Positions 40,414 through 63,985 of a DNA stretch of 64,000 bases are shown here, one piece after another. Each line of letters opens with the position of its first letter. Within the stretch, counting starts at the first letter, position 1. The stretch is from an uncultured Chloroflexota bacterium. GTDB taxonomy: Bacteria; Chloroflexota; UBA11872; VXNJ01. Below the pieces are notes generated by a model. The model saw only the letters and a program-made list of their open reading frames with translations, did no database searches and had not been told where the DNA came from. The translations under genes and the position numbers were made by a program. The DNA lies in contig CAJWLF010000013.1 in the NCBI GenBank assembly GCA_913043205.1, positions 4,787 to 68,786 on the forward strand. Reading direction: 5' to 3'.

Positions 40414-41664
40414 CTACCCAAATCGTTCGGGCTTGGTCATACTCAAGTCGAAGCCAGGTTCTTCGCCAGTAATTAGTCTCGCAACCACCTGCCCTGTTAC
40501 CGGCCCCAATGATAAACCTATCATTGCATGCCCTGCCGCAAAAACTAAATTATTCAAACGCTCACTTCGTCCAAGCAAAGGCAACCCATCAGGGGTACAA
40601 GGTCTGAGCCCCCGCCAAGTTTCTACATGACCCAGAGAATCCACCCCATTTAAATAACGTGCAGCCCCTTTGTTGATTGCATTTAATCTACGTTCATTAA
40701 TCCCTAAATCCATCCCTACCATCTCCAATGTACCCGCCAAACGAAGATTCGGCCCCATGGGTGTCACTGCTACTCGAGATTCGACCAGCAACATAGGAAC
40801 GTTGAATGATTCGACAGGACGAGCGTAGGTGATGCTGTAACCCTTAGCAGGCTGTATAACTGCTCTTAGTCTGAGCATAGCAGCTAATTCAGGAGTCCAT
40901 GCTCCAGAAGCCAAAACCACTTGCTCTGGCATGAAATCTCCCCGGGTTGTTCTAACCTTAATTATTTGGGCATCTTTTGTTTCAAATCCAACGGCTTCAG
41001 CCTCATTAATGAGAGTCACACCTTTGTCAACAGCATGTTGAGCCAACCCGTCGACAAACCTAGCAGGATCAACATGCGCATCGTCGGGATAGTGAATCAC
41101 CCCAGCCAGGCCTTCGCGTAGTTCAGGCACTAGCCTTATGGCCGCCGATCCCAAATGCACCGTACTCGGAATATTAGCTTTTCTCATTAAATCAGCTTCG
41201 TGTAACCCTGATTGCATTCCCTTATCAGAGTCATACACATAGAACAGACCCCGCCGCTCATAATGAGAATCAACTTCCAATTGATCCGACCACTCGGAAA
41301 ATAGGCCCCGACTAGCTAAATGCAAATCCCGCAATAGAGGTACAGCACGGTCTACATGTTCCTGATTGGCAAAAGAACGGAATTTCATCAGCCAGCGAAA
41401 AAGATTTAGATCAATACGAGGCCTTATATAGAAAGGACTTTCCGGATCGAACATCCATTTCAATCCCTCACCCATAACACCAGGAGCAGCCAGCGGCACA
41501 GAATGGCTGGGACAAACCAGCCCAGCATTCCCATAAGACGAGGCAAGCTCGTCACGACCTAAATCTACTACTGTTACATCGCATCCCAGATCGGCGAGGC
41601 AATACGCAGAAGATATCCCCATTATGCCACCACCAATTATTAGCACATCAGTGTTATTACTCAT
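40414..41664 (-). CDS. FAD-dependent oxidoreductase (DadA / D-amino-acid dehydrogenase-like)
   Basis: The N-terminal dinucleotide fold is DVLIIGGGIMGISSAYCLADLG. Length is 416 aa. Confidence 0.85.
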   Translation of the reverse strand: MSNNTDVLIIGGGIMGISSAYCLADLGCDVTVVDLGRDELASSYGNAGLVCPSHSVPLAAPGVMGEGLKWMFDPESPFYIRPRIDLNLFRWLMKFRSFANQEHVDRAVPLLRDLHLASRGLFSEWSDQLEVDSHYERRGLFYVYDSDKGMQSGLHEADLMRKANIPSTVHLGSAAIRLVPELREGLAGVIHYPDDAHVDPARFVDGLAQHAVDKGVTLINEAEAVGFETKDAQIIKVRTTRGDFMPEQVVLASGAWTPELAAMLRLRAVIQPAKGYSITYARPVESFNVPMLLVESRVAVTPMGPNLRLAGTLEMVGMDLGINERRLNAINKGAARYLNGVDSLGHVETWRGLRPCTPDGLPLLGRSERLNNLVFAAGHAMIGLSLGPVTGQVVARLITGEEPGFDLSMTKPERFG

Positions 41665-41718: not shown

Positions 41719-44700
41719 TCAGAACTTCCGCTTTGTTGAGGGATCGTCATAAAGCATCTCGGCATAGGTAGCCACATCTACTTCAAATTCGCCATCATGA
41801 CGTTCCGGTCTTTCGGCAACTACCGTGTCGGTAGTGATAATTGCACAAGCAACACTAACCGCTGCTGCAAGAGCATGCTGGGAAACTAGTAGCGGGTCAA
41901 TTATTCCAGATTCAAACAAGTCTATAAATTTTCCAGTCACGGAATCATACCCATTCCAGAAAGACCCAAAGTCGATACGAGCCAGAATCCCACCAGGGTC
42001 TTCCCCTGCATTAACTACAATCGATTTAAATGGATCGTCGAGCGCTTTCCGCATTGCAGACACTCCAGCACCGACATCGCTCTCTTCCGGCAATTCCGGA
42101 AGAGAGCGGGCCGCGTGTAAATAGGCAGCTCCACCACCAGGCACCACTCCACTTGTCAATGCTGAACGGACTGACTTAACAGCATCATCGGCAAGCTGTA
42201 ACCGTCTCTTGACTTCTAATTGTGTTGCAGCTCCCACGTATATCGTTCCAATTCTCCCAGACAACCGCTGCAACTGTTTTTCAGCTATTTTCGTAGCATT
42301 CGACCTGTCTCTTTCCCGAACTCGTTCCACAATCTGCAGCTTGCGTCTCTCAAGTCCATCTTCCCGATCGGCTCCATTTACAATTACAGCAGATTTCATG
42401 TCGACCACTACGCGCTGTGCTTTCCCTAATACATTGACATCGATAGAGTTCCAGGGACGCCCAATTGCGTCACCAATAACCTGACCTCCCGTCACTGCGG
42501 CAACATCCATCAAAACTTCACTGCCAGACAAATCTAACGAATTGGTTACTACTGGACACACACGCGGACCATCCTGTCGCCAATTAGCTCTCAAAGCTCC
42601 GAGTGTTTCGGTTGGGAAGTCCTCAGCAATTAAAACAACATCAGTAACGATATTTGCGTTGGTAAAAACATCAAACAGTAATGCCAAATCTCTTATCAGT
42701 ACAGAGCCTAAAATCGCAACGATATATGGGGATTCGATGACAGTTTGCGAACGATCAGCATCATCCACAAAGAATGCATCTGTCAAACTTGCCTCGGCCT
42801 GAAATCCATTATTAATTCTTATAGTTGTTTCGACACCTCTACCTTGCCGAACATCTATCGCTCCATCATCTCCAGTATGGTCCACGATCTGTGTCACCGC
42901 AGTAGCGATTTCGGAATCACGAGAAGAAACTCGAGCCACCCTCTCGACTTCTGCCTTACTGGAAATCTCGCGCGCATGCTCTCTCAAATAAGCATCTACA
43001 TAGTTTGCAGCCAATCTAATCCCACTGCCAATTGACATCGGGCTTCTACCGGCAGCAATCTGCATGTCAGCCTCACGAACAATAGCTTGAGCGAGAACCA
43101 TAGCCGTGGTTGTACCGTCACCAGCCATTGACTCTGTATGCAAAGCCGCCTCGCGCAAAAGCTGGGCTCCCAGATCTTCTATAGGGTCAGGTAATTCTAT
43201 TTCTCGAGCAACATCGGCCCCGTCTCTGGTTACTGCCGGACAATAACTTCCTGCTAAACCTCTACGTTCCAGCACCACGCTCATACCGGTCGGCCCATGT
43301 GTAACCTTGACAACATCCGCCAATTTATCTACCCCGCTATGCAGACTCCTACGACCATTGTCACCAAAAAGAATCTCAGTTGTACGACGCTCAGGCTGAG
43401 ATTGGTTTACTTCATTACCCATGCCGGGAATTTCAATATCCTCTATCTTTTCCGTGTGCCGAATGGCAGTCTCAGTGGTGAGTATCGACACAGCCGTACT
43501 GGTAGCACTACGCAGAGAACTAGAGACCACGTCAAGTGGGTCTAAAACACCAGCTTCGAATACATTTACACAACTCCTCGATAGCGCATCAAACCCGTAC
43601 TCGATATCATCTTCAGATTCAATTTTTTCAACAATCAGTTGACCATCTAACCCCGCGTTAATGGCAATTTGCTCAGTGGGCCGCTGAAGCGCTTCCCGCA
43701 CAATACCTACACCAGTAGCCTGATCCCCATGAACATCTAACACATCTAATGCCGATCTAGCCCATAGTAGAGATCGTCCACCACCAGGAAGAACACCATT
43801 GTCATACGCCGCTCGACAGGCAGAAACAGCATTTTCAGTCCTTTGACACAGTTCAGTCCTCTCGGTTCCAGTAGAGGCCGAGACTTCAATGGTGATCATC
43901 TTGCCTGAAAGACGCGTAATACGATTTTTGATCAGATCAGCCTGAGTGTGATTCCTAGTTCGATCAGCTTCAGATTGCATAGCCGATATACGACTGGCAA
44001 TTCGAGCAGGATCACCCTTTGGACCTACAATCAAAAATTCTTTTGGGCCAACCACGACACGCTCTGCCCTTCCGAATACTTCAGAATTTACATTGTCCCA
44101 AGACCGACCAAATTCATCAGACACAAACGTGCCTCCAGTCACTATGGCTAAGTCCTCGCATACTTCGCTACGACTGAGCCCAGCAACTGGGTTGCTTGCA
44201 ATAACTAATTGAAGATTTTCATTCTTGTTTGCCGCAAGAACGTCGGATAATGCAACCTCATCCACAGAATCGCACATAACAAAAACGGACGTCACATCAT
44301 TGTCAACTAATGAATCCAACAAGCGTCTAATTTCACCAAATTCAACTATTCGCCGATCGGTTATAAGTATGTATGGATTGTCTAATTCGGCTTTTCCATA
44401 AACCGTGTTAACGAAGGCTGAAGATACATAGCCTTCGTCCATACTTACCCCAGTAGATCGCCTCAACTGAGACTGCAACCCACGCCCTTCTTCAACCACA
44501 ACACCACCATTTGGCTGTGTTTCAAGAATAGCTTTTGCTGCTAGTTCTCCAAGTACATTGCTATTAGCGGAAACAGTGCCAACCTGAGTAAGCACGTTCT
44601 CATTTCGAGCGTCGACAGATATTCTCTTTAGTTCTTCAAGAACAACACCACTAGCCAACTCAATCCCACGACGCAACATCATGGGATTTGCACCTGCTGC

Positions 44701-45087
44701 TATATTTTTGAGTCCCGCATGCAACATTTCTTGCGCAAGGATGGTTGCAGACGTGGTGCCATCCCCAGCCCACCATGACGCCTCAGACGCTGCCTCAATA
44801 ATCAATTTGGCTCCCATATTTTCGTACTCATCCCGCAAATTAATCGACCGAGCAATAGATATCCCATCATTTGTTATCACGGGACGAAAGGGAGGCGTTT
44901 GCAGCAACACATTCTGGCATAGAGGACCAAGCGTAATTTTTGTTGTGTCAGCAACAGCATCAACTCCTCGCCCCAAGGCAAAACGGGCCTCGGAATCAAA
45001 AATCATTTCAGATTTTGATGAGCGAACCGGCTTAGGGCGAGATGGAGTTCCTGAACTTCCCAGAATGAATGCTTTTGAGTCTTCCAT
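41719..45087 (-). CDS. Tandem-fused double chaperonin: two complete GroEL/Cpn60-family modules in one 1122-aa polypeptide
   Basis: Module 1 spans about aa 28-548. It reads FDSEARFALGRGVDAVADTTKITLGP ... AGDGTTSATILAQEML ... TENAVSACRAAYDNGVLPGGG ... VLDPLDVVSSSLRSATSTAVSILTTETAI. Module 2 spans about aa 571-1095. It reads ILFGDNGRRSLHSGVDKLADVVKVTHGP ... AGDGTTTAMVLAQAIV ... ADDAVKSVRSALTSGVVPGGG ... IIDPLLVSQHALAAAVSVACAIITTDTVV. Each module is colinear with E. coli GroEL over its full length. The linker is about 22 aa with no stop. The true start may alternatively be the ATG at 45006 (MIFDSEAR...). Confidence 0.8.
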   Translation of the reverse strand: MEDSKAFILGSSGTPSRPKPVRSSKSEMIFDSEARFALGRGVDAVADTTKITLGPLCQNVLLQTPPFRPVITNDGISIARSINLRDEYENMGAKLIIEAASEASWWAGDGTTSATILAQEMLHAGLKNIAAGANPMMLRRGIELASGVVLEELKRISVDARNENVLTQVGTVSANSNVLGELAAKAILETQPNGGVVVEEGRGLQSQLRRSTGVSMDEGYVSSAFVNTVYGKAELDNPYILITDRRIVEFGEIRRLLDSLVDNDVTSVFVMCDSVDEVALSDVLAANKNENLQLVIASNPVAGLSRSEVCEDLAIVTGGTFVSDEFGRSWDNVNSEVFGRAERVVVGPKEFLIVGPKGDPARIASRISAMQSEADRTRNHTQADLIKNRITRLSGKMITIEVSASTGTERTELCQRTENAVSACRAAYDNGVLPGGGRSLLWARSALDVLDVHGDQATGVGIVREALQRPTEQIAINAGLDGQLIVEKIESEDDIEYGFDALSRSCVNVFEAGVLDPLDVVSSSLRSATSTAVSILTTETAIRHTEKIEDIEIPGMGNEVNQSQPERRTTEILFGDNGRRSLHSGVDKLADVVKVTHGPTGMSVVLERRGLAGSYCPAVTRDGADVAREIELPDPIEDLGAQLLREAALHTESMAGDGTTTAMVLAQAIVREADMQIAAGRSPMSIGSGIRLAANYVDAYLREHAREISSKAEVERVARVSSRDSEIATAVTQIVDHTGDDGAIDVRQGRGVETTIRINNGFQAEASLTDAFFVDDADRSQTVIESPYIVAILGSVLIRDLALLFDVFTNANIVTDVVLIAEDFPTETLGALRANWRQDGPRVCPVVTNSLDLSGSEVLMDVAAVTGGQVIGDAIGRPWNSIDVNVLGKAQRVVVDMKSAVIVNGADREDGLERRKLQIVERVRERDRSNATKIAEKQLQRLSGRIGTIYVGAATQLEVKRRLQLADDAVKSVRSALTSGVVPGGGAAYLHAARSLPELPEESDVGAGVSAMRKALDDPFKSIVVNAGEDPGGILARIDFGSFWNGYDSVTGKFIDLFESGIIDPLLVSQHALAAAVSVACAIITTDTVVAERPERHDGEFEVDVATYAEMLYDDPSTKRKF

Positions 45088-45276
45088 AACGAAATTTATG
45101 CCATAACATGTGTTGCCATCGCTTAATTATTACCGACATTTCCCAAGACGGTAGAAGATTCTTATTGGATAAGCCCATTGTACGAATATCTGCACATAAT
45201 TATGCATATCGACTAGTATCATCCAATACATGCCAAAACAACGGTCGTTAATCCTCATCCTAGTAGGTATCACACA

Positions 45277-46938
45277 GTGCGCGATCCATCCTTAGAACCC
45301 ATAACAACAAGACGGCTTGGCCGAGCCAAATCCATTTATCACGATATGGACGCCTTACTGCCACTAAAACGAGGTGCAGATTACGTCGCTGATACGATAA
45401 AGCTATCATTAGGACCGACTACAACCACCGTGCTAATCGATAACGTCGGCGAATTACCGATCTCTGCCCAAGATGGAACCTCCATCGCAAATTCGATCAA
45501 AGCACCTAATAGATTAGAAGATATCGGAAGCCATCTTATGCGCGATGGTATCTCGACAATGTCAAAGAATATTAGAGATGGGACCTCCACGGCCGCCACC
45601 CTAGCACAAAGTATCATCGAGCACGGTGTTGCCCAAATTGCAACTGGAACGAATGCCATGATTTTGACCCGAGGGATAGAGGCTGCGTCTAGAGCAGTCG
45701 AACGGGAAATTAGGAGTTTTTCGCAACCAGCAGACACAAGCGACACACTCATATCAGTAGCAACCACTTGCAGCGAAAATGCTGCTCTCGGAGAACGAAT
45801 CGCAGAGATGATTGCTCACTTAGGGCCCGAAGCCAACATAGGTGTTAGGGCTGAGCCTGTAGTTGGAGTGCATCCTTTCTACAGTCCTGGCATGCAAATG
45901 AATCGCGGATGGTATTCACCTCATCTGACAACAAACGAAGAAGGAACCGAAGCAATACTAGAAGACGCATTAGTGTTCATTACTAGCTCAGTCATACATG
46001 GATCTGAAACAATGGGGCTACTGCTTTCGAAACTAGCTAGTTACGAAAGGCCCTTTTTGATTATTGCCGACGACATAGATGAGGCAGCTCTTAAAGTATT
46101 GGTCGTCAACAAAACAAACGGGGCAATAAATGCTTTCGCTATCCAGGCACCTAGTTACGGGGATCATAAACTAGCCATTCTTGAAGATATAGCAGTATTT
46201 ACCGGTGGGAAAGTAGTTAATAACGTTACTATGGCATTATCCAATATTGGCTCCGAATTAGGCGACAATCTAGGATTGGCAACCCGTGTTGTAGCCAATA
46301 GACGCGAATCCGTGATTACTACCGGTGGTGGCAGCGAAGAACAAATAAAATCACGTATGGACCATATTTCAACAGAGCTCGAATCAATCACAGACGAAGA
46401 AGGGAGAGCAATGCTAAGACAGCGTTGGGGAACCCTAGGAAAGGGGGTGGGGCAAATCATTTTCGGTGCCCCTACCGAACCTGAGCGTAGGGAACTTCGC
46501 CGAACCCTTGAAAAAACAATTCAGGTTACAAGAGCAGGGTTGAGAGAAGGAGTTGTGGCAGGTGGAGGAATCGCGTTTCTAACTGCAGCAAATACATTGG
46601 CAACTACTAAATGGGCAGACGATGAGCAAGCGGGAGCAATATGCCTAACAAGTTCGCTAAAAAGACCTACAGAACAGATAGCCATCAATAGCGGACACGC
46701 GGGATCTACAATCATCTCCCAAATATATGATCTTGATCCTGGGTACGGATATGACGCTATTACAGGGAATTATGTAAACATGAAGGAAGCTGGAATAATA
46801 GATGCAACTTCAGTGACTATTCATGCTTTGCGAATTGCATGCAGTATTGCAGTCAATTTATTAAAAACCAACGTGGCTATCCATTACGCGCCGAGTGCAA
46901 AATGGCCAAAAGCCCCGGAGCGCCCTGTCAGCAATTGA
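45277..46938 (+). CDS. Highly divergent GroEL/Cpn60-like protein (553 aa), divergently transcribed from the double chaperonin
   Basis: Contains ADTIKLSLGP ... DGTSTAATLAQSII ... TRAGLREGVVAGGGIAFL ... GIIDATSVTIHALRIACSIAVNLL, colinear with GroEL. The conserved GPKGRN loop is replaced by GPTTTT. The position equivalent to GroEL D398 is K (EKTIQ). Confidence 0.75.
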   Translation: MRDPSLEPITTRRLGRAKSIYHDMDALLPLKRGADYVADTIKLSLGPTTTTVLIDNVGELPISAQDGTSIANSIKAPNRLEDIGSHLMRDGISTMSKNIRDGTSTAATLAQSIIEHGVAQIATGTNAMILTRGIEAASRAVEREIRSFSQPADTSDTLISVATTCSENAALGERIAEMIAHLGPEANIGVRAEPVVGVHPFYSPGMQMNRGWYSPHLTTNEEGTEAILEDALVFITSSVIHGSETMGLLLSKLASYERPFLIIADDIDEAALKVLVVNKTNGAINAFAIQAPSYGDHKLAILEDIAVFTGGKVVNNVTMALSNIGSELGDNLGLATRVVANRRESVITTGGGSEEQIKSRMDHISTELESITDEEGRAMLRQRWGTLGKGVGQIIFGAPTEPERRELRRTLEKTIQVTRAGLREGVVAGGGIAFLTAANTLATTKWADDEQAGAICLTSSLKRPTEQIAINSGHAGSTIISQIYDLDPGYGYDAITGNYVNMKEAGIIDATSVTIHALRIACSIAVNLLKTNVAIHYAPSAKWPKAPERPVSN

Positions 46939-47144: not shown

Positions 47145-49532
47145 ATGTTTCACGAAAGAGAGCAGTTGGTGGCCATAATCGAAAAAGACATCCAAAAGTC
47201 TAGGAACAAAGAAAGGATTTCCAGTCTTCGAAATCGAGCAATAACTTGGGAAGACTCTCCTGTTCGAGGCGAGCGCCTGAGGCTAGTCACTGAATCCTAT
47301 AAGCAAACTGAGGGACAAGGGGTGGCTGTTCGGAGGGCAAAGGCGTTAGCTCACACTTTGACAAATAACGCCATTCAGATTCGCGATGATGAATTGTTTG
47401 CAGGTCTTCCACAGCGCGCCGTTTATGGATCGGATTCACTGCACTTCAATAACCCAAGACACTGGGAAAGTGCTATGGATTACCCAGAGCTGACCGGTGG
47501 TATTTTCCCCGTACATAAAGAAATACCAGAAAACTTACAAGAGCATCTCGACTACTGGCAGGGACAGAAATTAGCTCGAGCAGTAGTCGCGGAAAATATG
47601 ACTCCGGAGATAAAGAAGGCCATGGAGTTCGGTGCGTTGTCAGTATCCGGCTGGGTGCAAGGACATTCGAATGCAGGATTCGACCGAGTGCTCGAATTAG
47701 GCTTAGAAGGAATCAAAGCCGAAGCAGAATCCAAACTTACAGAATTGCAGTCCGCAGATATAGATGAAGGACAAGACTTTTTACAAGGTGTGCTTATAGC
47801 TTGTGAAGGGGTAATCCAGCACGCAAAACGTTATGCCGATTTGGCAAGAGATAATGCAATTTCTGAGCCGGATTCTTCACGAAGAGCAGAATTGCTTCGT
47901 ATTGCTGATACTTGTGATAGAGTCCCGGCTCAACCAGCCAGTAATTTCCACGAAGCCCTTCAGTGCATATGGTTTGTACAGCGAGGGGTAGACATGGAAA
48001 TGGGAGATGCAGCGGCCCTAGCCAATGGATGGGGGAGAGTCGACCAATATTTATACCCCTACTACAGGTCAGACATCGATTCTGGAAACATAACCGACGA
48101 TGAAGTAAGGCTTTTACTGACAGAATTCTACCTGAAATTAAATCGAGCATATCAAGACACACTAATACTGCTCGGTGGACTAACAACAGAAGGGAAAGAT
48201 GGAACTAACGAACTTTCCTACATGTTGATGGAAATTCACAGAGACCAGGGACTTCTTATTGATATCGATGCACGTGTTCACTCTAAAACCCCCTCTGATT
48301 TCGTTCATTTGTGTGCCGAAGTAACACAAAAAAACCTAGGGTTTTCGTTCTTTAATGATGAACCTACCATCGCCGCACTCGAACGTATCGGCATACCAAA
48401 AGAGATTGCCGTTCAATATTCTCCTGTGGGATGCGTTGAAAATATCGTGCCTGGGTATGCCACTCCCACGACGATGGATAATCAAGTCAATGTCGCCAAA
48501 TGTCTGGAACTGGCGTTAAACGACGGTGTCTGCATGCTCACGGGCACTAGAATTGGCCCAGAGACAGGTGATCCAGCTAATTTCAAATCTTTTGACGACG
48601 TATGGGATGCCTTTGTAACTCAGTTAAATTATCTTGTTGATTTGGGTTGCCAGGGCACCAGTATCGTTCAAAAGGGTCAGGCAGGGCGCCTGCCGTTACC
48701 TTTCTATTCATCCACATGGTGGGATCCAATTAGCAAGGCCAAAGATCTTACAGAAGGTGGAGCAAGATATCCCTATTCAGGTTGCAACAATGTTGGTCTC
48801 AGTACTGCTGCCGACAGTCTTACAGCTATCAATAAATTAGTTTTTGAAGAACGTAAAGTCGACTGGCATGAACTGTTAGACGGTCTGAAGACAGATTTTG
48901 CTGGCAAAACAGATTTGCAAAATTCCCTGCTGGATTCCTCTCCAAAATATGGGAACGACAATGACGAAGCTGACCAAATGGCCTGCAAGGTGCATATGGC
49001 ACACTATGCAGCCCTCGAAGATAAAGTGACTGCTTTCGGGGGTCGTTACTTGCTGCTTATATTCAACACTAACCATCTGGTTGTCGTGTCGCATGGTTCT
49101 AGAACTGCTGCAACCCCAGATGGCAGAGGCGCACGTCAACCAGTCGGCATCAGTGTTTCGCCATCAGAAGGCAGAGATGTTTCTGGGCCAAAAGCTGCGA
49201 TGCGATCGATATGCAAGCTAGACCAAACAGCTATACCTGGTGGAGCTTCCTACATAATGGAATTAAACACCAAACACATTAAAAGCCCGAACGGAGATGG
49301 TGTTTCAACGGACCAGTTGGCTGATTTGCTCCAATACTATATCGACTTGGGGGGAATGAATTTGGCAATAAATGTCTTAGACCCTGAATGGATAGAAGAG
49401 GTTATGGATGACCCGACGAATAACCCCAACCTATCGGCACGGCTATACGGATGGAGCCAATACGTAAAGAACCTTGACCCACGATTACAGCAGTTTCTTC
49501 TTGACAGAACTAGACGATCATCGTCGGTTTAA
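47145..49532 (+). CDS. Glycyl radical enzyme of the PFL2 clade (pyruvate formate-lyase-like, glycerol dehydratase / CutC / HypD group)
   Basis: The N-terminal clade motif is GERLRLVTESYKQTEGQGVAVRRAKALAHTL ... DDELFAG. Also present is FHEALQCIWFVQ. The catalytic thiyl loop is YSPVGCVEN, with Cys at aa 430 and the adjacent Glu. The C-terminal glycyl-radical motif is ARLYGWSQY (RxxGWS), with Gly about 30 aa from the end. Length is 795 aa. Confidence 0.8.
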   Translation: MFHEREQLVAIIEKDIQKSRNKERISSLRNRAITWEDSPVRGERLRLVTESYKQTEGQGVAVRRAKALAHTLTNNAIQIRDDELFAGLPQRAVYGSDSLHFNNPRHWESAMDYPELTGGIFPVHKEIPENLQEHLDYWQGQKLARAVVAENMTPEIKKAMEFGALSVSGWVQGHSNAGFDRVLELGLEGIKAEAESKLTELQSADIDEGQDFLQGVLIACEGVIQHAKRYADLARDNAISEPDSSRRAELLRIADTCDRVPAQPASNFHEALQCIWFVQRGVDMEMGDAAALANGWGRVDQYLYPYYRSDIDSGNITDDEVRLLLTEFYLKLNRAYQDTLILLGGLTTEGKDGTNELSYMLMEIHRDQGLLIDIDARVHSKTPSDFVHLCAEVTQKNLGFSFFNDEPTIAALERIGIPKEIAVQYSPVGCVENIVPGYATPTTMDNQVNVAKCLELALNDGVCMLTGTRIGPETGDPANFKSFDDVWDAFVTQLNYLVDLGCQGTSIVQKGQAGRLPLPFYSSTWWDPISKAKDLTEGGARYPYSGCNNVGLSTAADSLTAINKLVFEERKVDWHELLDGLKTDFAGKTDLQNSLLDSSPKYGNDNDEADQMACKVHMAHYAALEDKVTAFGGRYLLLIFNTNHLVVVSHGSRTAATPDGRGARQPVGISVSPSEGRDVSGPKAAMRSICKLDQTAIPGGASYIMELNTKHIKSPNGDGVSTDQLADLLQYYIDLGGMNLAINVLDPEWIEEVMDDPTNNPNLSARLYGWSQYVKNLDPRLQQFLLDRTRRSSSV

Positions 49533-49556
49533 TCCTATCAAGCAAGTTAAGCTTTA

Positions 49557-49973
49557 GTGGTCAATCAGCCGGCTAGGTCCTTATCTCCTGATTCGACGGG
49601 CGACGGAATTTGGCACGATGTTGCCAGCACAGGTGATTTGATCGATGGTAAGTCGATTCTAGTTCAGATAAACAAACAGCCCGTTGTAGTTTGCCTAAGC
49701 CAAGGTCAATATTACGCAATTGGGCATAATTGCCCTCACTATGATGCCCCCATGGTAGAAGGACAATTAGTAGGAAATAAAATTATATGTCCGTGGCACT
49801 GGTGGGAATTCGACCTAGATACCGGACACTGTCTCTATGCACCAACTGAACAAATAACAGAAATGTTTTTTAGCAGTGAATTTATGGGCAATCCTCAAAG
49901 CGTCAAACTTCCTATATACCCTATACGTACAGAAGCTGGCCGCATACTCATCCAATTATCTTCGGAATCATAG
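49557..49973 (+). CDS. Rieske [2Fe-2S] domain protein (NirD-like small Rieske ferredoxin)
   Basis: The Rieske ligands are CPHYDAPMVEG and CPWHWWEF. Length is 138 aa. It starts 24 nt after the GRE stop. Confidence 0.8.
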   Translation: MVNQPARSLSPDSTGDGIWHDVASTGDLIDGKSILVQINKQPVVVCLSQGQYYAIGHNCPHYDAPMVEGQLVGNKIICPWHWWEFDLDTGHCLYAPTEQITEMFFSSEFMGNPQSVKLPIYPIRTEAGRILIQLSSES

Positions 49974-59032: not shown

Positions 59033-60646
59033 CTAGTGAGACTCATGATCATTCTCAGGAACCTCTGCAACCAAAGCACCTATAGTCAGCACCATGCCCG
59101 CTATAGACCCAGCATTCTCCAAAACGGACCGAACAACCTTCGCAGGATCAATTATTGCTACATCATCGTCCAACATGTCGACATATTGCTCAGATATAAC
59201 ATCAAACCCTATCGTCTTGCTGCCTTCTTCAACCTGCCTCCGTTTTACGTCTCCCACTACAACATCCCCATTAAACCCAGCATTACGTGCAATTTGCTTG
59301 ATGGGTTCCTCCAGTGCAGCAATCACCGATCGATACCCGGTACTTTCATCACCATCTAACAAATCGGAGTCAAGACCTTCAGCCGCTACCAGTAGTGTAA
59401 CTCCGCCGCCGGGAACTATACCTTCTTCAACAGCTGCCCTGGTGGCAGCTACAGCGTCTTCCACTCTGAAAGCCTTTTCTCTCACCTCAGTCTCCGTTGC
59501 TCCACCAACTCTCAATATAGCCACACCTCCAGATAATTTACCAAGGCGGCTCTCTAACCTTTCCCGGTCATGCTGCAATGGGGTCTCTTTAATCTGTGAA
59601 GCTACCTGGTTGACTCTAAACGCTACTTGTTCGTCAGAACCGTGCCCGCCGACCAAAGTAGCCGACTCCCGATCCACTACCACTCTTCGACAACGACCCA
59701 AATCATCAATCGTCACAGAAACCAAGTCCCTTCCTACTCGGTCCGAAATCACAACCCCTCCAGTCAGCGCGGCAATATCTTCAAGAACCTCGTCCCTAGC
59801 ATCACCCCATTCGGGGGATTCAATTGCAACACAGCCAATGTTGCCTTGCATCTTGTTCATCACCAATGTGGCCATAGCCTCGTCAGCTATAGCATCACCC
59901 ATCACTAGCAAGGAATCAGCCCCGTTAGCTTTCACCACCTCCAATACCGGCAGAATATCGGCAACCGAGGATATTTGTGCATCACTGATAAGAAGGAAAC
60001 AATCATCCAATTCAGCCTGCATACGCTCTTCGCTAGTAATGAAATAGGGAGACAAGAATCCACTGTCGATACGAATTCCATCAACGTATTCGATTTCCAG
60101 GTTCAATCCAGTGGATTCCTCAACGCTGACAGCTCCATTAGGGCCAACCTTGTCTATAGCTTCCCCGACTAAGTCTCCTATTGCCTGTTCGGCAGCAGAA
60201 ATAGTGGCTACACTCTTAATTTCCTCCAAACTTTTAACAGGTACTGCCTGATCCTCGACAAGCTTAATAGCATCCGTTATCGCCCTCTGCACACCAAGCC
60301 TGATGAGCATAGGATTAGCACCAGCTGCAATGTTTCTAAGACCCTGCTGCAGAATTGCCTGAGCCATAACCACAGACGTGGTTGTACCATCCCCTGCCAC
60401 TATATTCGTCTGATTGGCCACCTCCTTGAAAACCTGTGCTCCCATATCCTCAAAAACATCCTCAAGTTCTACATGACGGGCTACTGTCACACCATCGTGT
60501 GTAATAGTTGGTGCAGCATAACGCCGACCCAGGGCAACGTTTCGCCCCTTAGGACCAAGTGTAGATTTGACCGCTTCGGCTAATTTATCGATACCATTCA
60601 TCGCAAGGCGCCGAGCATCTTGCCCATGAATAATCTCTTTAGGCAT
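59033..60646 (-). CDS. groEL: Chaperonin GroEL (Cpn60) with canonical ATPase residues, no GGM tail, and no adjacent groES
   Basis: Contains TLGPKGRNVAL, ITHDGVTVARHVELED, AGDGTTTSVVMAQAIL and VEDAVAATRAAVEEGIVPGGGVTLL, all near-identical to consensus. The C-terminus ends EVPENDHESH. The upstream neighbour is the glycoside hydrolase gene; there is no Cpn10 ORF. Confidence 0.9.
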   Translation of the reverse strand: MPKEIIHGQDARRLAMNGIDKLAEAVKSTLGPKGRNVALGRRYAAPTITHDGVTVARHVELEDVFEDMGAQVFKEVANQTNIVAGDGTTTSVVMAQAILQQGLRNIAAGANPMLIRLGVQRAITDAIKLVEDQAVPVKSLEEIKSVATISAAEQAIGDLVGEAIDKVGPNGAVSVEESTGLNLEIEYVDGIRIDSGFLSPYFITSEERMQAELDDCFLLISDAQISSVADILPVLEVVKANGADSLLVMGDAIADEAMATLVMNKMQGNIGCVAIESPEWGDARDEVLEDIAALTGGVVISDRVGRDLVSVTIDDLGRCRRVVVDRESATLVGGHGSDEQVAFRVNQVASQIKETPLQHDRERLESRLGKLSGGVAILRVGGATETEVREKAFRVEDAVAATRAAVEEGIVPGGGVTLLVAAEGLDSDLLDGDESTGYRSVIAALEEPIKQIARNAGFNGDVVVGDVKRRQVEEGSKTIGFDVISEQYVDMLDDDVAIIDPAKVVRSVLENAGSIAGMVLTIGALVAEVPENDHESH

Positions 60647-62090: not shown

Positions 62091-63002
62091 ATGAACGTTA
62101 ATTGGCAAGGGGTTTACCCCGCCGCAACTACCGGTTTTGACAGTGATGAAAACCTCGACTTACAAGAGACCGCCAAGCATTTTGACTACCTGATCCAATC
62201 AGGCGTACACGGTCTAGTAGCACTTGGCACCGTCGGTGAAAACACTGCTCTTACCCAACATGAAAAGATGATGGTTGTTGAAACGGCCGTCGACACGAGC
62301 AATCAGCGAGTGCCTGTTCTGATAGGAGTCGCCGAAAACTCTACGCGAGAAGCTGCCAATTTCGCCGCTTCATGTGAATCTGCGGGAGTGGACGGACTTA
62401 TGGTGTTACCGGGCATGGTATACAAGGCTGATGCTAAAGAAACAATGGATCACTTCCGCTTAGTAGCCAACGCATCTGAGTTACCAATACTGATATACAA
62501 CAATCCAGTTGCATATGGGGTCGATCTAAAGCCAGAACATTTTTCACAGCTGGCAGACGTTGAAACATTGGTCGCGATAAAAGAATCTTCCGAAGACGTG
62601 CGTAGAATTACGGACATATATAACGCAGTCGGTGAAAGATATACAATCTTTGCCGGCGTAGATGACTTAGCTTTGGAAGCGGCTATGCTCGGCGCTAAAG
62701 GATGGGTAGCCGGCCTAGTTAACGCCTTCCCAACAGAATCAGTTTTACTATGGGAACTAGCAATGTCCGGATCGTGGGAGGAAGCAAGACAGATTTATCG
62801 ATGGTTCAGCCCACTTCTCCACTTGGATACTCACATCAAGCTAGTGCAGTACATAAAACTGACTATGGCCGAAGTAGGATTAGGCTCTGAGACAGTACGC
62901 GCCCCCAGAAGACCGATAAAAGGGGAGGAACGCTCTGAGATAATGAACATTATTCGCGCGGCCATTAAATCAAGACCCAACGTCGATAGGACTCTGACAT
63001 AG
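62091..63002 (+). CDS. DapA-family Schiff-base enzyme, a candidate 1-pyrroline-4-hydroxy-2-carboxylate deaminase or other DHDPS-like lyase
   Basis: Contains GLVALGTVGE and the Schiff-base Lys in LVAIKESS. It lies 15 nt upstream of the proline-racemase-family gene. Confidence 0.75.
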   Translation: MNVNWQGVYPAATTGFDSDENLDLQETAKHFDYLIQSGVHGLVALGTVGENTALTQHEKMMVVETAVDTSNQRVPVLIGVAENSTREAANFAASCESAGVDGLMVLPGMVYKADAKETMDHFRLVANASELPILIYNNPVAYGVDLKPEHFSQLADVETLVAIKESSEDVRRITDIYNAVGERYTIFAGVDDLALEAAMLGAKGWVAGLVNAFPTESVLLWELAMSGSWEEARQIYRWFSPLLHLDTHIKLVQYIKLTMAEVGLGSETVRAPRRPIKGEERSEIMNIIRAAIKSRPNVDRTLT

Positions 63003-63016
63003 GAACAGATTCAATA

Positions 63017-63985
63017 ATGAAGCCATATCAAGAAGTAAGAGTCATAGACTCACACACCGCAGGCGAGCCCACCCGCATTGTGATTTCCGGAGGCCCCAAC
63101 TTGGGAAATGGACCATTATCAACCCGCCGAGCGAAATTTCAGTCGGACTTTGATTGGTTCAGATCAGCAACTATGAATGAACCTAGAGGATCCGAAGTGA
63201 TTGTCGGGGGTTTGTTATGTGAACCATACTTCGACGACTGTGTCGCCGGAGTCATATTTTTTAACAACGTGGGATACATCGGAATGTGCGGACACGGGAC
63301 TATAGGACTCATCTCAACGCTCGCCTTCCTAGGTGAAATACAACCAGGCGTCCATCAAATTGATACCCCTGTCGGCGTTGTTAAAGCAGAATTACTCGCA
63401 TCCGGTGAAGTCACTGTGATCAATGTACCCTCGTACTGCCATCGTAACAATGTAGAGGTCGAGCTTGATAATGGAGAAATAGTTACTGGAGACATCTCTT
63501 GGGGCGGCAACTGGTTTTTTTTGGTTGAAGCTCCAGAATTCGATTATTCGATTGCTGGTATTCCATCCCTAACTACCTATGCCAAACAAATCCGCAAAGC
63601 AATTGATAATTCGGGTATCACAGGACGCAATAATCAACGAATAGACCACATAGAGCTATTTGCCCCTCCACACTCCAACGACTCACACAGCCGCAACTTT
63701 GTCCTATGCCCTGGAGGGGCTTACGACAGATCCCCCTGTGGAACAGGAACAAGCGCAAAAATTGCAACTCTATACGAGAGTGGACAGATCAGAGAAGGCG
63801 AACTTTGGAGGCAAGAAAGCATTATCGGCAGCACTTTTGACGCCAGGGTAAATCTGGTTAATGGCCAAATCATTCCCTCCATTACCGGGACTGCCTTTGT
63901 CACTGCTGACTCCAAGTTGATTCTGGATCCTAGAGACCCATACGTCCACGGCATAGCTAGTTCAACATGTTTAACCAGCCCATAA
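63017..63985 (+). CDS. Proline racemase family enzyme with both catalytic cysteines, a candidate 4-hydroxyproline 2-epimerase or proline racemase
   Basis: The first catalytic Cys is in GYIGMCGHGTIG. The second is in DRSPCGTGTSAK. Retention of both Cys indicates an epimerase or racemase rather than a dehydratase. Confidence 0.85.
   Translation: MKPYQEVRVIDSHTAGEPTRIVISGGPNLGNGPLSTRRAKFQSDFDWFRSATMNEPRGSEVIVGGLLCEPYFDDCVAGVIFFNNVGYIGMCGHGTIGLISTLAFLGEIQPGVHQIDTPVGVVKAELLASGEVTVINVPSYCHRNNVEVELDNGEIVTGDISWGGNWFFLVEAPEFDYSIAGIPSLTTYAKQIRKAIDNSGITGRNNQRIDHIELFAPPHSNDSHSRNFVLCPGGAYDRSPCGTGTSAKIATLYESGQIREGELWRQESIIGSTFDARVNLVNGQIIPSITGTAFVTADSKLILDPRDPYVHGIASSTCLTSP

What the first reader, a model, noticed from the sequence alone, without database searches (positions are those of the whole stretch)
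41719..46938. ATPase and conserved-loop residues are selectively degenerate in two of the three clustered Cpn60-like modules
Module 1 of the fusion has DGTTT changed to DGTTS. It has the GroEL D398 equivalent as Asn (TENAVSA instead of EDAL). It has the GPKGRN loop as GPLCQN. The divergent standalone paralog at 45277-46938 has DGTST, has Lys at the D398 position (EKTIQ), and has GPTTTT. Module 2 of the fusion keeps DGTTT and the Asp (ADDAV). In GroEL, D398 is required for ATP hydrolysis. This suggests a mixture of catalytically competent and ATP-binding-only, non-hydrolysing modules. A hetero-oligomer with asymmetric ATP use is plausible. Such asymmetry is a hallmark of CCT but is not described for bacterial group I chaperonins.
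Basis: partly seen in the sequence, partly recalled or inferred. Interest (0 to 1): 0.65.

Follow-up and report, generated by a model that had tools for sequence, protein, structure and literature searches.

The report
Tandem GroEL fusion with inactive modules
A marine Chloroflexota-like bacterium carries a rare natural fusion of two GroEL-type chaperonin units next to a third, separate copy; only one of the three keeps the full ATP-splitting site, which suggests (but does not prove) a bacterial chaperonin ring made of unequal parts.

Summary
Window 41719-45087 (-) encodes a 1122-aa protein made of two complete GroEL modules. Window 45277-46938 (+) encodes a divergent 553-aa GroEL, transcribed divergently from the fusion.

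A profile alignment, ungapped and with maximal posterior probability around the site, gives these results:
- Module 1: D398->N, in 5/5 orthologous lineages. The rest of its nucleotide pocket is preserved.
- Module 2: all or nearly all of 19 invariant pocket residues kept.
- Paralog: G86R, degenerate T89/T91, D398->K/A/T and P496A/S.

All three modules are under purifying selection (dN/dS 0.15-0.19). Each forms its own orthologous group, so they are neither pseudogenes nor artefacts.

Fusion and paralog are always adjacent, and they have diverged in step with each other, unlike their neighbours. Tandem Cpn60 fusions are very rare: about five clusters among 1.84 billion representatives. No groES and no CIRCE element are nearby.

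My best reading is a specialised, probably hetero-oligomeric group I chaperonin. Three fusions plus one paralog would make a 7-membered ring with about three hydrolysing sites. Co-assembly and stoichiometry are inferred, not shown.

The claim that such degeneracy is undescribed in bacteria is overstated, because chlamydial GroEL2/3 show it.

I call it a new variant of a known kind.

The parts
41719..45087 (-). Gene for a 1122-aa tandem fusion of two complete GroEL/Cpn60 modules.
   Evidence: ORF. Pfam PF00118, 366 bits, several stretches. Two full-length domains against a GroEL HMM. The identical protein is seen on 10 contigs from several sources, and orthologues of 47-88% identity exist. AF2 gives two folded GroEL-like modules; the model's best Foldseek matches, each aligning about 515 residues (one module's length), are GroEL chains at target-normalised TM-score 0.82-0.86.
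43441..45009 (-). Module 1 (aa 27-549). The nucleotide pocket is largely kept, but the catalytic Asp is replaced (D398 equivalent = N419). Also carries GP[LV]CQN and the apical changes L234R, Y203A and N265A.
   Evidence: hmmalign residue tables. D398N in 5/5 orthologues. dN/dS 0.15.
43831..43833 (-). Codon AAT = Asn419, the GroEL D398 equivalent of module 1.
43378..43440 (-). Linker between the modules (aa 550-570). Variable, acidic and Pro/Gly-rich.
   Evidence: Lies between the HMM domain ends. dN/dS 0.29. AF2 pLDDT below 50 for residues 540-569.
41791..43377 (-). Module 2 (aa 571-1099). Keeps GDGTTT, D52, D398 (= D968) and GGG. This is the predicted hydrolysing module. It also has L31H, conserved in 5/5 orthologues.
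   Evidence: 18-19 of 19 invariant pocket residues kept in four lineages.. dN/dS 0.19.
42184..42186 (-). Codon GAT = Asp968, the GroEL D398 equivalent of module 2.
41722..41790 (-). C-terminal tail of the fusion (aa 1100-1122), with the conserved motif EVDVxTYAxMLxDDP in place of GroEL's GGM repeats.
   Evidence: Invariant columns G1099, E1102, V1103, D1104, Y1108, M1111, L1112, D1114, D1115 and P1116 in five orthologues. dN 0.019 and no synonymous change against L078.
45088..45276 (.). Divergent intergenic region shared by the fusion and the paralog. Presumed common regulatory region.
   Evidence: About 90% identical to the 88%-orthologue loci L078 and L080, with a roughly 50-nt invariant block, while flanking genes have dS of about 0.3. 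No sigma-70 consensus match and no CIRCE element.
45277..46938 (+). Standalone divergent Cpn60 paralog, 553 aa. Degraded phosphate loop (RDGTST) and Lys at the D398 position. It keeps R197 and E386.
   Evidence: ORF. Pfam 128 bits. Full-length GroEL HMM match at 428 bits. Residue tables. dN/dS 0.17. Orthologues P0085-P0088.
46513..46515 (+). Codon AAA = Lys413, the GroEL D398 equivalent of the paralog.
45574..45576 (+). Codon AGA = Arg100, the GroEL G86 equivalent of the paralog. G86R is present in 5/5 paralog orthologues.
47145..49532 (+). PFL-like glycyl-radical-family enzyme (795 aa), immediately downstream of the paralog. Syntenic with the chaperonin pair in all five lineages; a candidate client.
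   Evidence: Pfam PFL-like plus Gly_radical. Below all NCBIfam equivalog cut-offs. Synteny. GCVE and the radical Gly are conserved.
49557..49973 (+). Small Rieske [2Fe-2S] protein, always paired with the PFL-like enzyme.
   Evidence: Pfam Rieske. The pair is conserved in more distant Chloroflexota loci that lack the chaperonins.
59033..60646 (-). Fourth Cpn60 (537 aa) with a fully canonical nucleotide pocket, no groES and no GGM tail. Its orthologue lies 71 nt downstream of a related tandem fusion in locus L163.
   Evidence: Pfam. HMM score 643 bits, 19/19 pocket residues, 46% identity to E. coli GroEL. L163 single Cpn60 is 58% identical.

Best explanation
The locus encodes a specialised group I chaperonin built from three ancient, co-inherited module types. 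Module 1 and module 2 are fused in one polypeptide; the third type is a separate paralog.

Predicted properties, inferred from residues:
- Module 2 binds and hydrolyses ATP.
- Module 1 binds ATP but hydrolyses it very slowly (D398N, analogous to GroEL D398A).
- The paralog is a non-catalytic subunit that may not bind nucleotide at all.

Inferred from co-inheritance and arithmetic: the two gene products co-assemble. Three fusion proteins (six modules) plus one paralog would close a seven-membered ring. Active and inactive sites would then alternate, giving about three hydrolysing sites per ring. The fusion fixes the 1:1 ratio and the neighbour order.

Each module has its own conserved changes in the apical GroES/substrate-binding groove. 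No groES, GGM tail or CIRCE element accompanies the genes. I therefore expect a narrow-client, probably GroES-independent chaperone rather than the housekeeping GroEL.

The neighbouring PFL-like/Rieske enzyme is the most obvious candidate client, but that link is weak.
For: Shown:
- Two full-length GroEL modules plus a full-length paralog.
- Robust residue assignments.
- Module 2 keeps 18-19/19 invariant pocket residues. Module 1 keeps 16-18/19, with D398N the only consistent loss. The paralog keeps 14/19, which equals its background rate of retention.
- Purifying selection on all three modules, dN/dS 0.15-0.19, similar to neighbours at 0.11-0.19.
- Each module type is a monophyletic orthologous group (bootstrap 98-100). 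The types are only 26-32% identical to one another, so the triplication is old and every copy has been retained.
- Fusion and paralog are adjacent and divergent in 5/5 lineages, although the genes on the far side of the fusion differ.
- The shared intergenic region is conserved beyond synonymous-site levels.
- Fusion and paralog track each other in divergence (48/50, 50/53, 66/62 and 81/79% across lineage pairs). Neighbours do not: the PFL-like enzyme is 90% and DHDPS 92% identical where the chaperonins are 48-50%.
- No groES in the window or in related loci, with a working positive control. No CIRCE element.
- Module-specific, conserved apical substitutions such as L234R and N265A in module 1.

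Precedent from papers:
- GroEL D398A binds ATP but has about 2% ATPase (PMC5855711).
- Chlamydomonas CPN60 alpha:beta1:beta2 is 6:2:6, that is 3:1:3 per ring (bioRxiv 10.1101/432013).
- Tandem Cpn20 plus single Cpn10 give seven-domain co-chaperonin rings (PMC5780408).
Against: - No direct evidence of co-assembly, ring size or ATPase activity.
- AF2 of the fusion gives pTM 0.45, so there is no defined packing of the two modules.
- A second clade of tandem fusions (P0006-P0009, P0252) keeps canonical pockets in both modules and has no single Cpn60 next to it. A fusion therefore does not require a dedicated seventh subunit.
- In locus L163 a related fusion sits beside a canonical-type single Cpn60 (an orthologue of the window's fourth Cpn60), not a degenerate paralog. 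Its module 1 keeps D398.
- The effect of Asn, as opposed to Ala, at position 398 has not been measured as far as I know.
- The PFL-like/Rieske pair occurs without these chaperonins in more distant Chloroflexota, and L163 has no such enzyme. The client link may simply be inherited synteny.
- The orthologue sample is small: five lineages of one clade.
Confidence: 0.5

Rival explanations
1. Separate machines. Seven fusion proteins alone would build a 14-module double ring, for example a ring of module 1 stacked on a ring of module 2, with the linker crossing the equator. The ring count could also differ from seven. The standalone paralog would act independently as an ATP-independent holdase or moonlighting protein, as proposed for other variant GroEL paralogs.
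For: - Tandem fusions without an adjacent single Cpn60 exist (L002 and L079), so fusion-only assemblies must be possible.
- The linker of about 20-30 disordered residues is long enough, from my knowledge of GroEL geometry, to reach either an intra-ring or an inter-ring neighbour.
- The paralog keeps the R197/E386 inter-subunit pair that modules 1 and 2 have lost, as expected if it self-associates.
- Review literature states that bacterial multiple chaperonins prefer homo-oligomerisation (PMC5904260).
Against: - Strict adjacency, a shared conserved intergenic region and matched divergence of fusion and paralog are not explained by independent functions.
- Inter-ring contact residues (R452/E461) are not retained in module 1 (E/A at 452). 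That argues against a conventional module-1 ring stacked on another ring, although this argument is weak.
Confidence: 0.3
2. Redundant, functionally decaying GroEL duplicates. Under this reading the substitutions are relaxed-selection noise in spare copies, and the fusion is a neutral loss of a stop codon between tandem genes.
For: - All three modules have lost 30-45% of positions that are invariant in canonical GroEL outside the pocket.
- dN/dS of 0.15-0.19 is, from my general knowledge, higher than is typical for housekeeping groEL.
- The window lineage sits on a very long branch.
Against: - dN/dS is well below 1 and equals that of neighbouring enzymes.
- No frameshifts or stops occur across five or more lineages.
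- D398N, G86R, L31H, C35/Q36, L234R and the C-terminal motif are each fixed within their module type across 47-81%-identical orthologues.
- Module 2's pocket is significantly better preserved than its background (Fisher p 0.003-0.010).
- Each module type is monophyletic and old.
Confidence: 0.05
3. Assembly or gene-calling artefact. Two adjacent groEL genes would have been wrongly joined into one ORF.
For: - Adjacent but separate groEL genes do occur. L138 looked like a long match but is two genes.
Against: - The identical 1122-aa protein is recorded on 10 contigs from NCBI, JGI, ENA, Tara and Logan assemblies.
- Orthologous single ORFs of 1081-1125 aa occur in independent samples.
- The linker is in frame and translated without a stop in all of them.
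Confidence: 0.01

Closest known systems
Chloroplast Cpn60 alpha/beta1/beta2 hetero-oligomer (Chlamydomonas CPN60, 6:2:6).
   Same: A group I chaperonin built from three diverged subunit types. Its reported 3:1:3 per-ring ratio is the same arithmetic as the proposed 3:3:1. Subunit types are specialised for assembly and for substrate or co-chaperonin contact.
   Different: The chloroplast subunits are separate polypeptides about 50% identical to one another. All seven pockets bind nucleotide, and they work with Cpn10/Cpn20. Here two types are covalently fused, the types are only 26-32% identical, two of three have altered catalytic residues, and no co-chaperonin gene is nearby. Co-assembly is not shown here.
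Chlamydial variant GroEL2/GroEL3.
   Same: Bacterial group I paralogs without groES, with differences at GroES-binding and ATP-binding or hydrolysis regions (PMC1892554). This is precedent that degenerate ATP sites in bacterial GroEL paralogs are already described.
   Different: These proteins are not members of those families: NCBIfam NF038369/NF038370 scores are far below the 600-bit cut-off. The chlamydial proteins are unfused and not adjacent to one another. I did not check the literature on whether the chlamydial paralogs form mixed oligomers.
Eukaryotic CCT/TRiC (group II).
   Same: In concept: ancient paralogous modules at about 30% identity, each conserved as its own orthologous group; subunit-specific apical surfaces; unequal nucleotide use around the ring (for example PMC6765261, listed).
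   Different: A different chaperonin group: thermosome and CCT models score far below their cut-offs. CCT has eight subunit types and a built-in lid. To my knowledge CCT's asymmetry comes from differing affinities with the catalytic Asp retained, not from replacing it.
Tandem co-chaperonin Cpn20 with single-domain Cpn10, and engineered covalently linked GroEL rings.
   Same: Cpn20 is a natural head-to-tail fusion of two ring-forming modules. It meets the same even-versus-seven problem and, in algae and plants, solves it by adding a single-domain subunit to reach seven (PMC5780408). Laboratory GroEL subunits fused C-terminus to N-terminus still form functional rings (Farr et al., Cell 2000; from my own knowledge, not retrieved here).
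   Different: Cpn20 is the lid, not the ATPase ring. The GroEL concatemers are artificial. I found no paper describing a natural GroEL-GroEL fusion.
GroEL D398A (hydrolysis-deficient mutant).
   Same: It lacks the same catalytic carboxylate as module 1. D398A binds ATP and GroES normally but hydrolyses at about 2% of wild type (PMC5855711).
   Different: D398A is a laboratory Ala mutant present in all 14 subunits. Here a natural Asn is fixed in every second module of a fusion.

Membership tests
Group I chaperonin GroEL/Cpn60 (Pfam PF00118; NCBIfam TIGR02348, NF009487) | Full-length sequence match to GroEL profiles. | tested here: met
   Fusion: PF00118 366 bits, TIGR02348 825 bits (cut-off 582), and two domains covering HMM positions 4-527 and 4-529. 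Paralog: passes subfamily NF009487 (428.7 against a cut-off of 352) but fails the equivalog TIGR02348 (387.8 against 582.1).
Group I chaperonin GroEL/Cpn60 | Three-domain GroEL fold. | tested here: met
   AF2 model of the fusion has mean pLDDT 74.9. Its Foldseek top hits are GroEL chains, each aligning about 515 residues (one module's length), at target-normalised TM-score 0.82-0.86. DSSP shows the same secondary-structure pattern in both modules. The paralog was not modelled.
Group I chaperonin GroEL/Cpn60 | Invariant nucleotide-binding and hydrolysis residues (T30, G32, P33, D52, G53, G86-T91, D398, A405/406, G414-416, I454, D495, P496). | tested here: not met
   Met by module 2 (18-19/19) and by the fourth Cpn60 (19/19). 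Not met by module 1 (D398N in 5/5, T91S in 3/5). Not met by the paralog (G86R, T89A, T91V/A, D398K/A/T, P496A/S).
Group I chaperonin GroEL/Cpn60 | Co-chaperonin gene (groES) in the operon or nearby. | tested here: not met
   tblastn with three GroES sequences finds nothing in the 64-kb window (best E 1.5) and nothing in 12 related loci. Canonical control loci give E values of 1e-10 to 1e-27. A groES elsewhere in the genome cannot be excluded.
Group I chaperonin GroEL/Cpn60 | Conserved apical GroES/substrate-binding residues (Y199, Y203, F204, L234, L237, L259, V263, V264, N265). | tested here: not met
   The changes are module-specific. Module 1 has Y203A, L234R and N265A. Module 2 has Y199L, L234A/T/V and V263R/A. 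The paralog has Y199W, Y203H/R and L234G/A/N.
Group I chaperonin GroEL/Cpn60 | Gly-Gly-Met C-terminal tail and CIRCE/HrcA heat-shock control. These are typical but not universal. | tested here: not met
   The tails are EVDVATYAEMLYDDPSTKRKF and ...APSAKWPKAPERPVSN. No CIRCE element is found with up to 3 mismatches in the window.
Group I chaperonin GroEL/Cpn60 | Heptameric ring or tetradecamer assembly. | not testable with these tools
   Only single-chain prediction was available. pTM 0.45 gives no information on packing.
Chlamydial variant GroEL2/GroEL3 (NCBIfam NF038370, NF038369) | Score above the family cut-off of 600 bits. | tested here: not met
   Fusion: 237 and 300 bits, summed over two modules. 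Paralog: 121 and 134 bits.
Group II chaperonin (thermosome/CCT) | Match to thermosome or CCT subunit models above their cut-offs. | tested here: not met
   The best score is 147 bits against cut-offs of 400-800, and GroEL models score far higher. The resemblance to CCT is functional only.
Hetero-oligomeric group I chaperonin (chloroplast Cpn60 type) | Different subunit types co-assembled in the same ring. | not testable with these tools
   Only indirect evidence is available: adjacency in 5/5 lineages, a shared conserved intergenic region, and matched divergence.

The most novel reading that the evidence does not exclude
A bacterial, CCT-like asymmetric chaperonin. Three covalent module-1/module-2 dimers plus one degenerate paralog would form a seven-membered ring. 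Only the three module-2 sites would hydrolyse ATP, module 1 would act as an ATP-binding allosteric partner, and the paralog would be a non-catalytic keystone that closes the ring. The machine would work without GroES on a narrow client set, possibly the adjacent oxygen-sensitive PFL-like/Rieske enzyme. It would be the first natural covalently concatenated GroEL, and an independent evolutionary route to ordered hetero-oligomeric chaperonin rings.
Probability: 0.25. Interest if true: 0.85.

Novelty: new variant of a known kind. Interest (0 to 1): 0.62.

Why it matters
How symmetric homo-oligomeric chaperonins turned into ordered hetero-oligomers with unequal ATP use, as in CCT and chloroplast Cpn60, is an open evolutionary and mechanistic question. 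This locus offers a natural bacterial system where gene fusion fixes subunit order, and where the catalytic Asp is replaced in every second module.

Laboratories have had to engineer that arrangement, using concatenated GroEL and D398A mixed rings, to ask how many active subunits a ring needs.

The proteins are small enough to express and image, so co-assembly, stoichiometry and the division of ATPase labour can be tested directly.

The work also shows that natural GroEL-GroEL fusions exist but are extremely rare. It flags a possible dedicated chaperone for an unusual glycyl-radical-type enzyme in abundant marine Chloroflexota.

Tried and rejected
1. The genome-contig scan with the fusion matched only the generic DEYENMGA pattern. 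It returned 68 ordinary GroEL loci, so it found no relative among the species representatives and gave no taxon. Taxonomy was instead inferred from source names of cluster members, Chloroflexota/Dehalococcoidia MAGs.

2. The metagenome-contig scan with the five-fusion alignment gave only three true family loci (L080, L081, L082). L138 looked like a 3.5-kb match but is two separate canonical groEL genes.

3. The CIRCE search found nothing. The sigma-70 promoter scan found nothing in the divergent intergenic region, so regulation remains unknown.

4. AF2 of the whole fusion was meant to show how the modules pack. With pTM 0.45 and no coordinates returned, it cannot tell intra-ring from inter-ring linkage.

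5. Inter-subunit salt-bridge positions (R197/E386, D83/K327, R452/E461) were inspected for complementary changes between modules. The pattern is suggestive of lost canonical allostery but does not discriminate between assembly models.

6. Three literature searches for natural tandem GroEL fusions and two for a chaperonin/glycyl-radical or glycyl-radical/Rieske link found nothing. The library holds only open-access papers, so absence is weak evidence.

7. Pseudogene and artefact explanations were considered and rejected.

8. A tight client link to the PFL-like enzyme was considered. It was downgraded after the enzyme/Rieske pair was found without chaperonins and a related fusion was found without the enzyme.

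9. The context of P0254, another partial fusion with a degenerate second module, could not be read because the contig is only 3 kb.

Full report
**What is there.**
- The window carries a 1122-aa ORF at 41719-45087 on the minus strand and a 553-aa ORF at 45277-46938 on the plus strand. They are transcribed divergently from a 189-bp spacer.
- Both match Pfam Cpn60_TCP1 and NCBIfam GroEL models.
- I built a GroEL HMM from 108 canonical GroELs plus E. coli GroEL. My recalled E. coli sequence was checked by the positions of D52, D87, T89-91, D398 and G414-416.
- Against this HMM the long ORF contains two complete modules: aa 27-549 covers HMM positions 4-527, and aa 571-1099 covers 4-529. A short linker joins them. 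The 553-aa protein is one complete module.
- An AlphaFold2 model of the fusion shows two folded GroEL-like modules. Residues 1-30, 540-569 (the linker) and 1093-1122 are predicted disordered. The model's best Foldseek matches are GroEL chains, each aligning about 515 residues, one module's length. The best fits are to GroES-bound-state chains, at TM-score 0.82-0.86 normalised to the target.
- A fourth Cpn60 of 537 aa lies at 59033-60646.
- The rest of the window is ordinary chromosome: pyrimidine and purine biosynthesis genes, transporters and catabolic enzymes.
- Cluster members of the orthologues are labelled Chloroflexota or Dehalococcoidia MAGs. The window's own proteins occur in Tara Oceans data.

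**Checking the residues.**
- The stretch from GroEL positions 378 to 420 aligns without gaps and with maximal posterior probability in all three modules. The D398 equivalents are therefore Asn419 in module 1, Asp968 in module 2 and Lys413 in the paralog. A pairwise phmmer alignment to Thermus GroEL gives the same register for module 1.
- In the 109 canonical sequences, D398, G86, T89 and T91 are 100% conserved.
- The substitutions are fixed within each module type across orthologues that are only 44-81% identical:
  - Module 1 has D398N in 5/5, GP[LV]CQN in 4/5 (GAVCQN in P0005) and T91S in 3/5.
  - Module 2 keeps D398 and GDGTTT in 5/5 and has L31H in 5/5.
  - The paralog has G86R in 5/5, D398K/K/A/A/T, and T89/T90/T91 variously A, G, S or V.

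**Is the degeneracy selective?**
- I took the 95 columns that are at least 98% invariant in canonical GroEL and split them into 19 pocket positions and 76 others.
- All three modules are highly derived: only 55-74% of the non-pocket invariants survive.
- Module 2 keeps 18-19/19 pocket residues (Fisher p 0.003-0.010 against its background).
- Module 1 keeps 16-18/19 (p 0.001-0.033), and D398N is the one consistent loss. This is the signature of a preserved binding site with the catalytic carboxylate removed.
- The paralog keeps 14/19, no better than its background (p 0.6-0.8). Its pocket has simply lost special protection, and its phosphate loop is damaged. I would not call it 'ATP-binding-only'.
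- The GPKGRN residues that differ (K34, G35, R36) are not strictly invariant in GroEL. From my own knowledge of the structure, they begin the Lys34-Asp52 stem-loop that contacts the neighbouring subunit. Their module-specific fixation (C35/Q36 in module 1) may reflect retuned interfaces rather than ATPase loss.
- The fourth Cpn60 keeps 19/19 pocket residues.

**Real genes, not decay or artefact.**
- The identical fusion protein is on 10 contigs from several independent resources.
- Single-ORF orthologues of 1081-1125 aa occur in other samples.
- I compared the window with an 88%-identical orthologous locus (L078) using the Nei-Gojobori method. dN/dS is 0.15 for module 1, 0.19 for module 2 and 0.17 for the paralog. 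Three neighbouring genes give 0.11-0.19. This rests on a single sequence pair.
- The three module types are only 26-32% identical to each other and 32-38% identical to E. coli GroEL.
- In a neighbour-joining tree each type is monophyletic (bootstrap 98-100), and together they form a clade (bootstrap 85). Long-branch effects are a caveat.
- This is therefore an old triplication in which every copy has been kept, the same pattern as CCT paralogs.

**How rare is a tandem GroEL?**
- I ran an exhaustive profile search of 1.84 billion cluster representatives. A two-module protein should outrank single GroELs there, because its score sums over both modules.
- The search found only about five clusters of tandem fusions: P0003 (this clade), P0251, P0252, P0089 and P0254.
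- A second clade (P0006-P0009, P0252) keeps canonical pockets in both modules.
- I found no paper on natural GroEL-GroEL fusions. The library holds only open-access papers.

**Evidence that fusion and paralog belong together.**
- In all five lineages of the clade the two genes are adjacent and divergent. The genes beyond the 3' end of the fusion differ in each lineage.
- The spacer between them is about 90% identical to the L078 and L080 loci and contains a 50-nt invariant block. Synonymous divergence in the flanking genes is about 0.3.
- The most telling result is the identity matrix.
  - By the PFL-like enzyme, DHDPS and Rieske genes, the window and L004 are sister lineages (90, 92 and 74% identity).
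  - Yet their fusions are 48% and their paralogs 50% identical.
  - Across all lineage pairs the fusion and the paralog track each other: 48/50, 50/53, 49/51, 66/62, 67/62 and 81/79.
- Whether this reflects acceleration or replacement by recombination, the two genes changed as one unit.

**Mechanism proposed.**
- Steps inferred from residues:
  - Module 2 hydrolyses ATP.
  - Module 1 binds ATP but hydrolyses it poorly, by analogy with GroEL D398A, which binds ATP normally and has about 2% ATPase (PMC5855711).
  - The paralog is non-catalytic.
- Steps inferred from co-inheritance and arithmetic:
  - The products co-assemble.
  - Since a heptameric ring cannot be tiled by two-module proteins alone, three fusions plus one paralog give seven.
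- Two documented precedents use the same arithmetic:
  - Chlamydomonas CPN60 alpha:beta1:beta2 is 6:2:6, which is 3:1:3 per ring (10.1101/432013).
  - Tandem Cpn20 combines with single Cpn10 to give seven co-chaperonin domains (PMC5780408).
- Laboratory C-to-N concatenation of GroEL subunits within a ring is tolerated (Farr et al. 2000; my own knowledge, not retrieved).
- The apical GroES/substrate groove carries different fixed substitutions in each module, for example L234R, Y203A and N265A in module 1.
- The canonical R197-E386 and D83-K327 pairs are lost in modules 1 and 2.
- No groES lies in the window or in 12 related loci, with a working positive control. No CIRCE element is present. 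GGM tails are replaced; in module 2 the replacement is the conserved motif EVDVxTYAxMLxDDP.
- I therefore expect a narrow-client, probably GroES-independent machine with non-canonical allostery.

**What argues against this.**
- Nothing here shows co-assembly, and the AF2 pTM of 0.45 leaves module packing undefined.
- The second fusion clade has no adjacent single Cpn60, so fusion-only assemblies must exist. One possibility is seven fusions spanning two rings.
- In L163 a more distant fusion (P0251) keeps D398 in module 1. It is followed 71 nt downstream by a canonical-pocket single Cpn60 that is the orthologue (58% identity) of the window's fourth Cpn60, not of the degenerate paralog.
  - This supports a general 'fusion plus single' pairing.
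  - It also shows that the degenerate paralog is not the only possible partner, and that D398N arose within the clade.

**The possible client.**
- In all five lineages the paralog is followed by a 788-795-aa PFL-like enzyme and a small Rieske protein, and further on by DHDPS-family and Fe-ADH genes. In two lineages a LacI regulator, a second PFL-like glycyl-radical-type gene and a radical-SAM activase-type gene are inserted.
- The enzyme keeps the GCVE cysteine loop and the radical glycine, as R[LMY]YGWS rather than RVAGYS.
- It falls below every NCBIfam equivalog cut-off.
- It has no activase gene in the 64-kb window.
- However, the enzyme/Rieske pair occurs without chaperonins in more distant Chloroflexota, and L163 lacks it. 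The client link is a lead only.

**Comparison with known systems and verdict.**
- These are group I chaperonin homologues by sequence and fold. Module 1 and the paralog fail the family's invariant catalytic signature, and the locus lacks groES (see the membership table).
- They are not members of the chlamydial GroEL2/3 families or of group II.
- Degenerate ATP sites in bacterial GroEL paralogs are already described for Chlamydiae (PMC1892554), and hetero-oligomeric group I rings are known in chloroplasts.
- What appears new is the combination of three things: a natural covalent tandem GroEL; precise removal of the catalytic Asp in one of the two fused modules; and a co-evolving degenerate third subunit.
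- I classify it as a new variant of a known kind, with interest 0.62.
- I give the fully asymmetric 3:3:1 ring reading about 25% probability. It would be of high interest if true.

Noticed in passing
window 47145-49973; loci L160, L161, L162: A PFL-like glycyl-radical-family enzyme is always followed by a small Rieske [2Fe-2S] protein. The pair is conserved across Chloroflexota at 47-90% identity. It has no activating radical-SAM gene in this 64-kb window. The glycine motif is altered (R[LMY]YGWS instead of RVAGYS), and scores fall below every NCBIfam equivalog cut-off. This may be an uncharacterised enzyme class in an organism from oxic seawater.
   Followed up: partly
window 59033-60646 (-); L163 2971-4584: A fourth Cpn60 with a fully canonical ATP pocket but no groES and no GGM tail sits beside a sugar ABC transporter. 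Its orthologue (58% identity) lies 71 nt downstream of a distantly related tandem fusion (P0251) in L163. A canonical-type single GroEL may therefore also partner tandem fusions.
   Followed up: partly
window 41719-46938 versus L004 8163-13366: The window lineage and L004 share 90-92% identical PFL-like and DHDPS proteins, but their chaperonin fusions and paralogs are only 48-50% identical. Either the chaperonin pair evolved extremely fast on the window branch, or it was replaced by recombination. The break in synteny lies exactly at the 3' end of the fusion gene.
   Followed up: partly
window 41722-41790 (-): The C-terminal tail of module 2 carries a conserved motif (EVDVxTYAxMLxDDP) in place of GroEL's GGM repeats. 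It shows no synonymous change against the 88% orthologue over 23 codons. It may be a cavity-facing client or partner motif, or it may overlap a nucleotide-level signal.
   Followed up: no
window 45088-45276: The divergent spacer between fusion and paralog contains a roughly 50-nt block that is invariant in three loci, including the 10-bp palindrome CATAATTATG. No sigma-70-like promoter and no CIRCE element were detected.
   Followed up: partly
loci L002 10001-13246 and L079 10001-13261: A second, separate clade of natural tandem GroEL fusions (P0006-P0009, P0252) keeps canonical ATP residues in both modules. These genes lie downstream of a MauE-family gene (with CopC/CopD between in L002) and near glycosyltransferase genes, with no adjacent single Cpn60.
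   Followed up: partly
protein P0254 (locus L164 22-2586): Another partial tandem Cpn60 fusion from a JGI metagenome has a strongly degenerate second module (D52R, GDGAAR, D398H). Loss of catalytic residues in one half of a tandem GroEL may therefore have happened more than once.
   Followed up: no
window 40414-41664, 62091-63985: The window carries a D-amino-acid dehydrogenase-like FAD enzyme, a second DHDPS-family gene and a proline-racemase-family gene. These resemble hydroxyproline or D-amino-acid catabolic sets, and sulfatase and ABC sugar-transporter genes are also present. The region looks like a catabolic island around the chaperonins.
   Followed up: no
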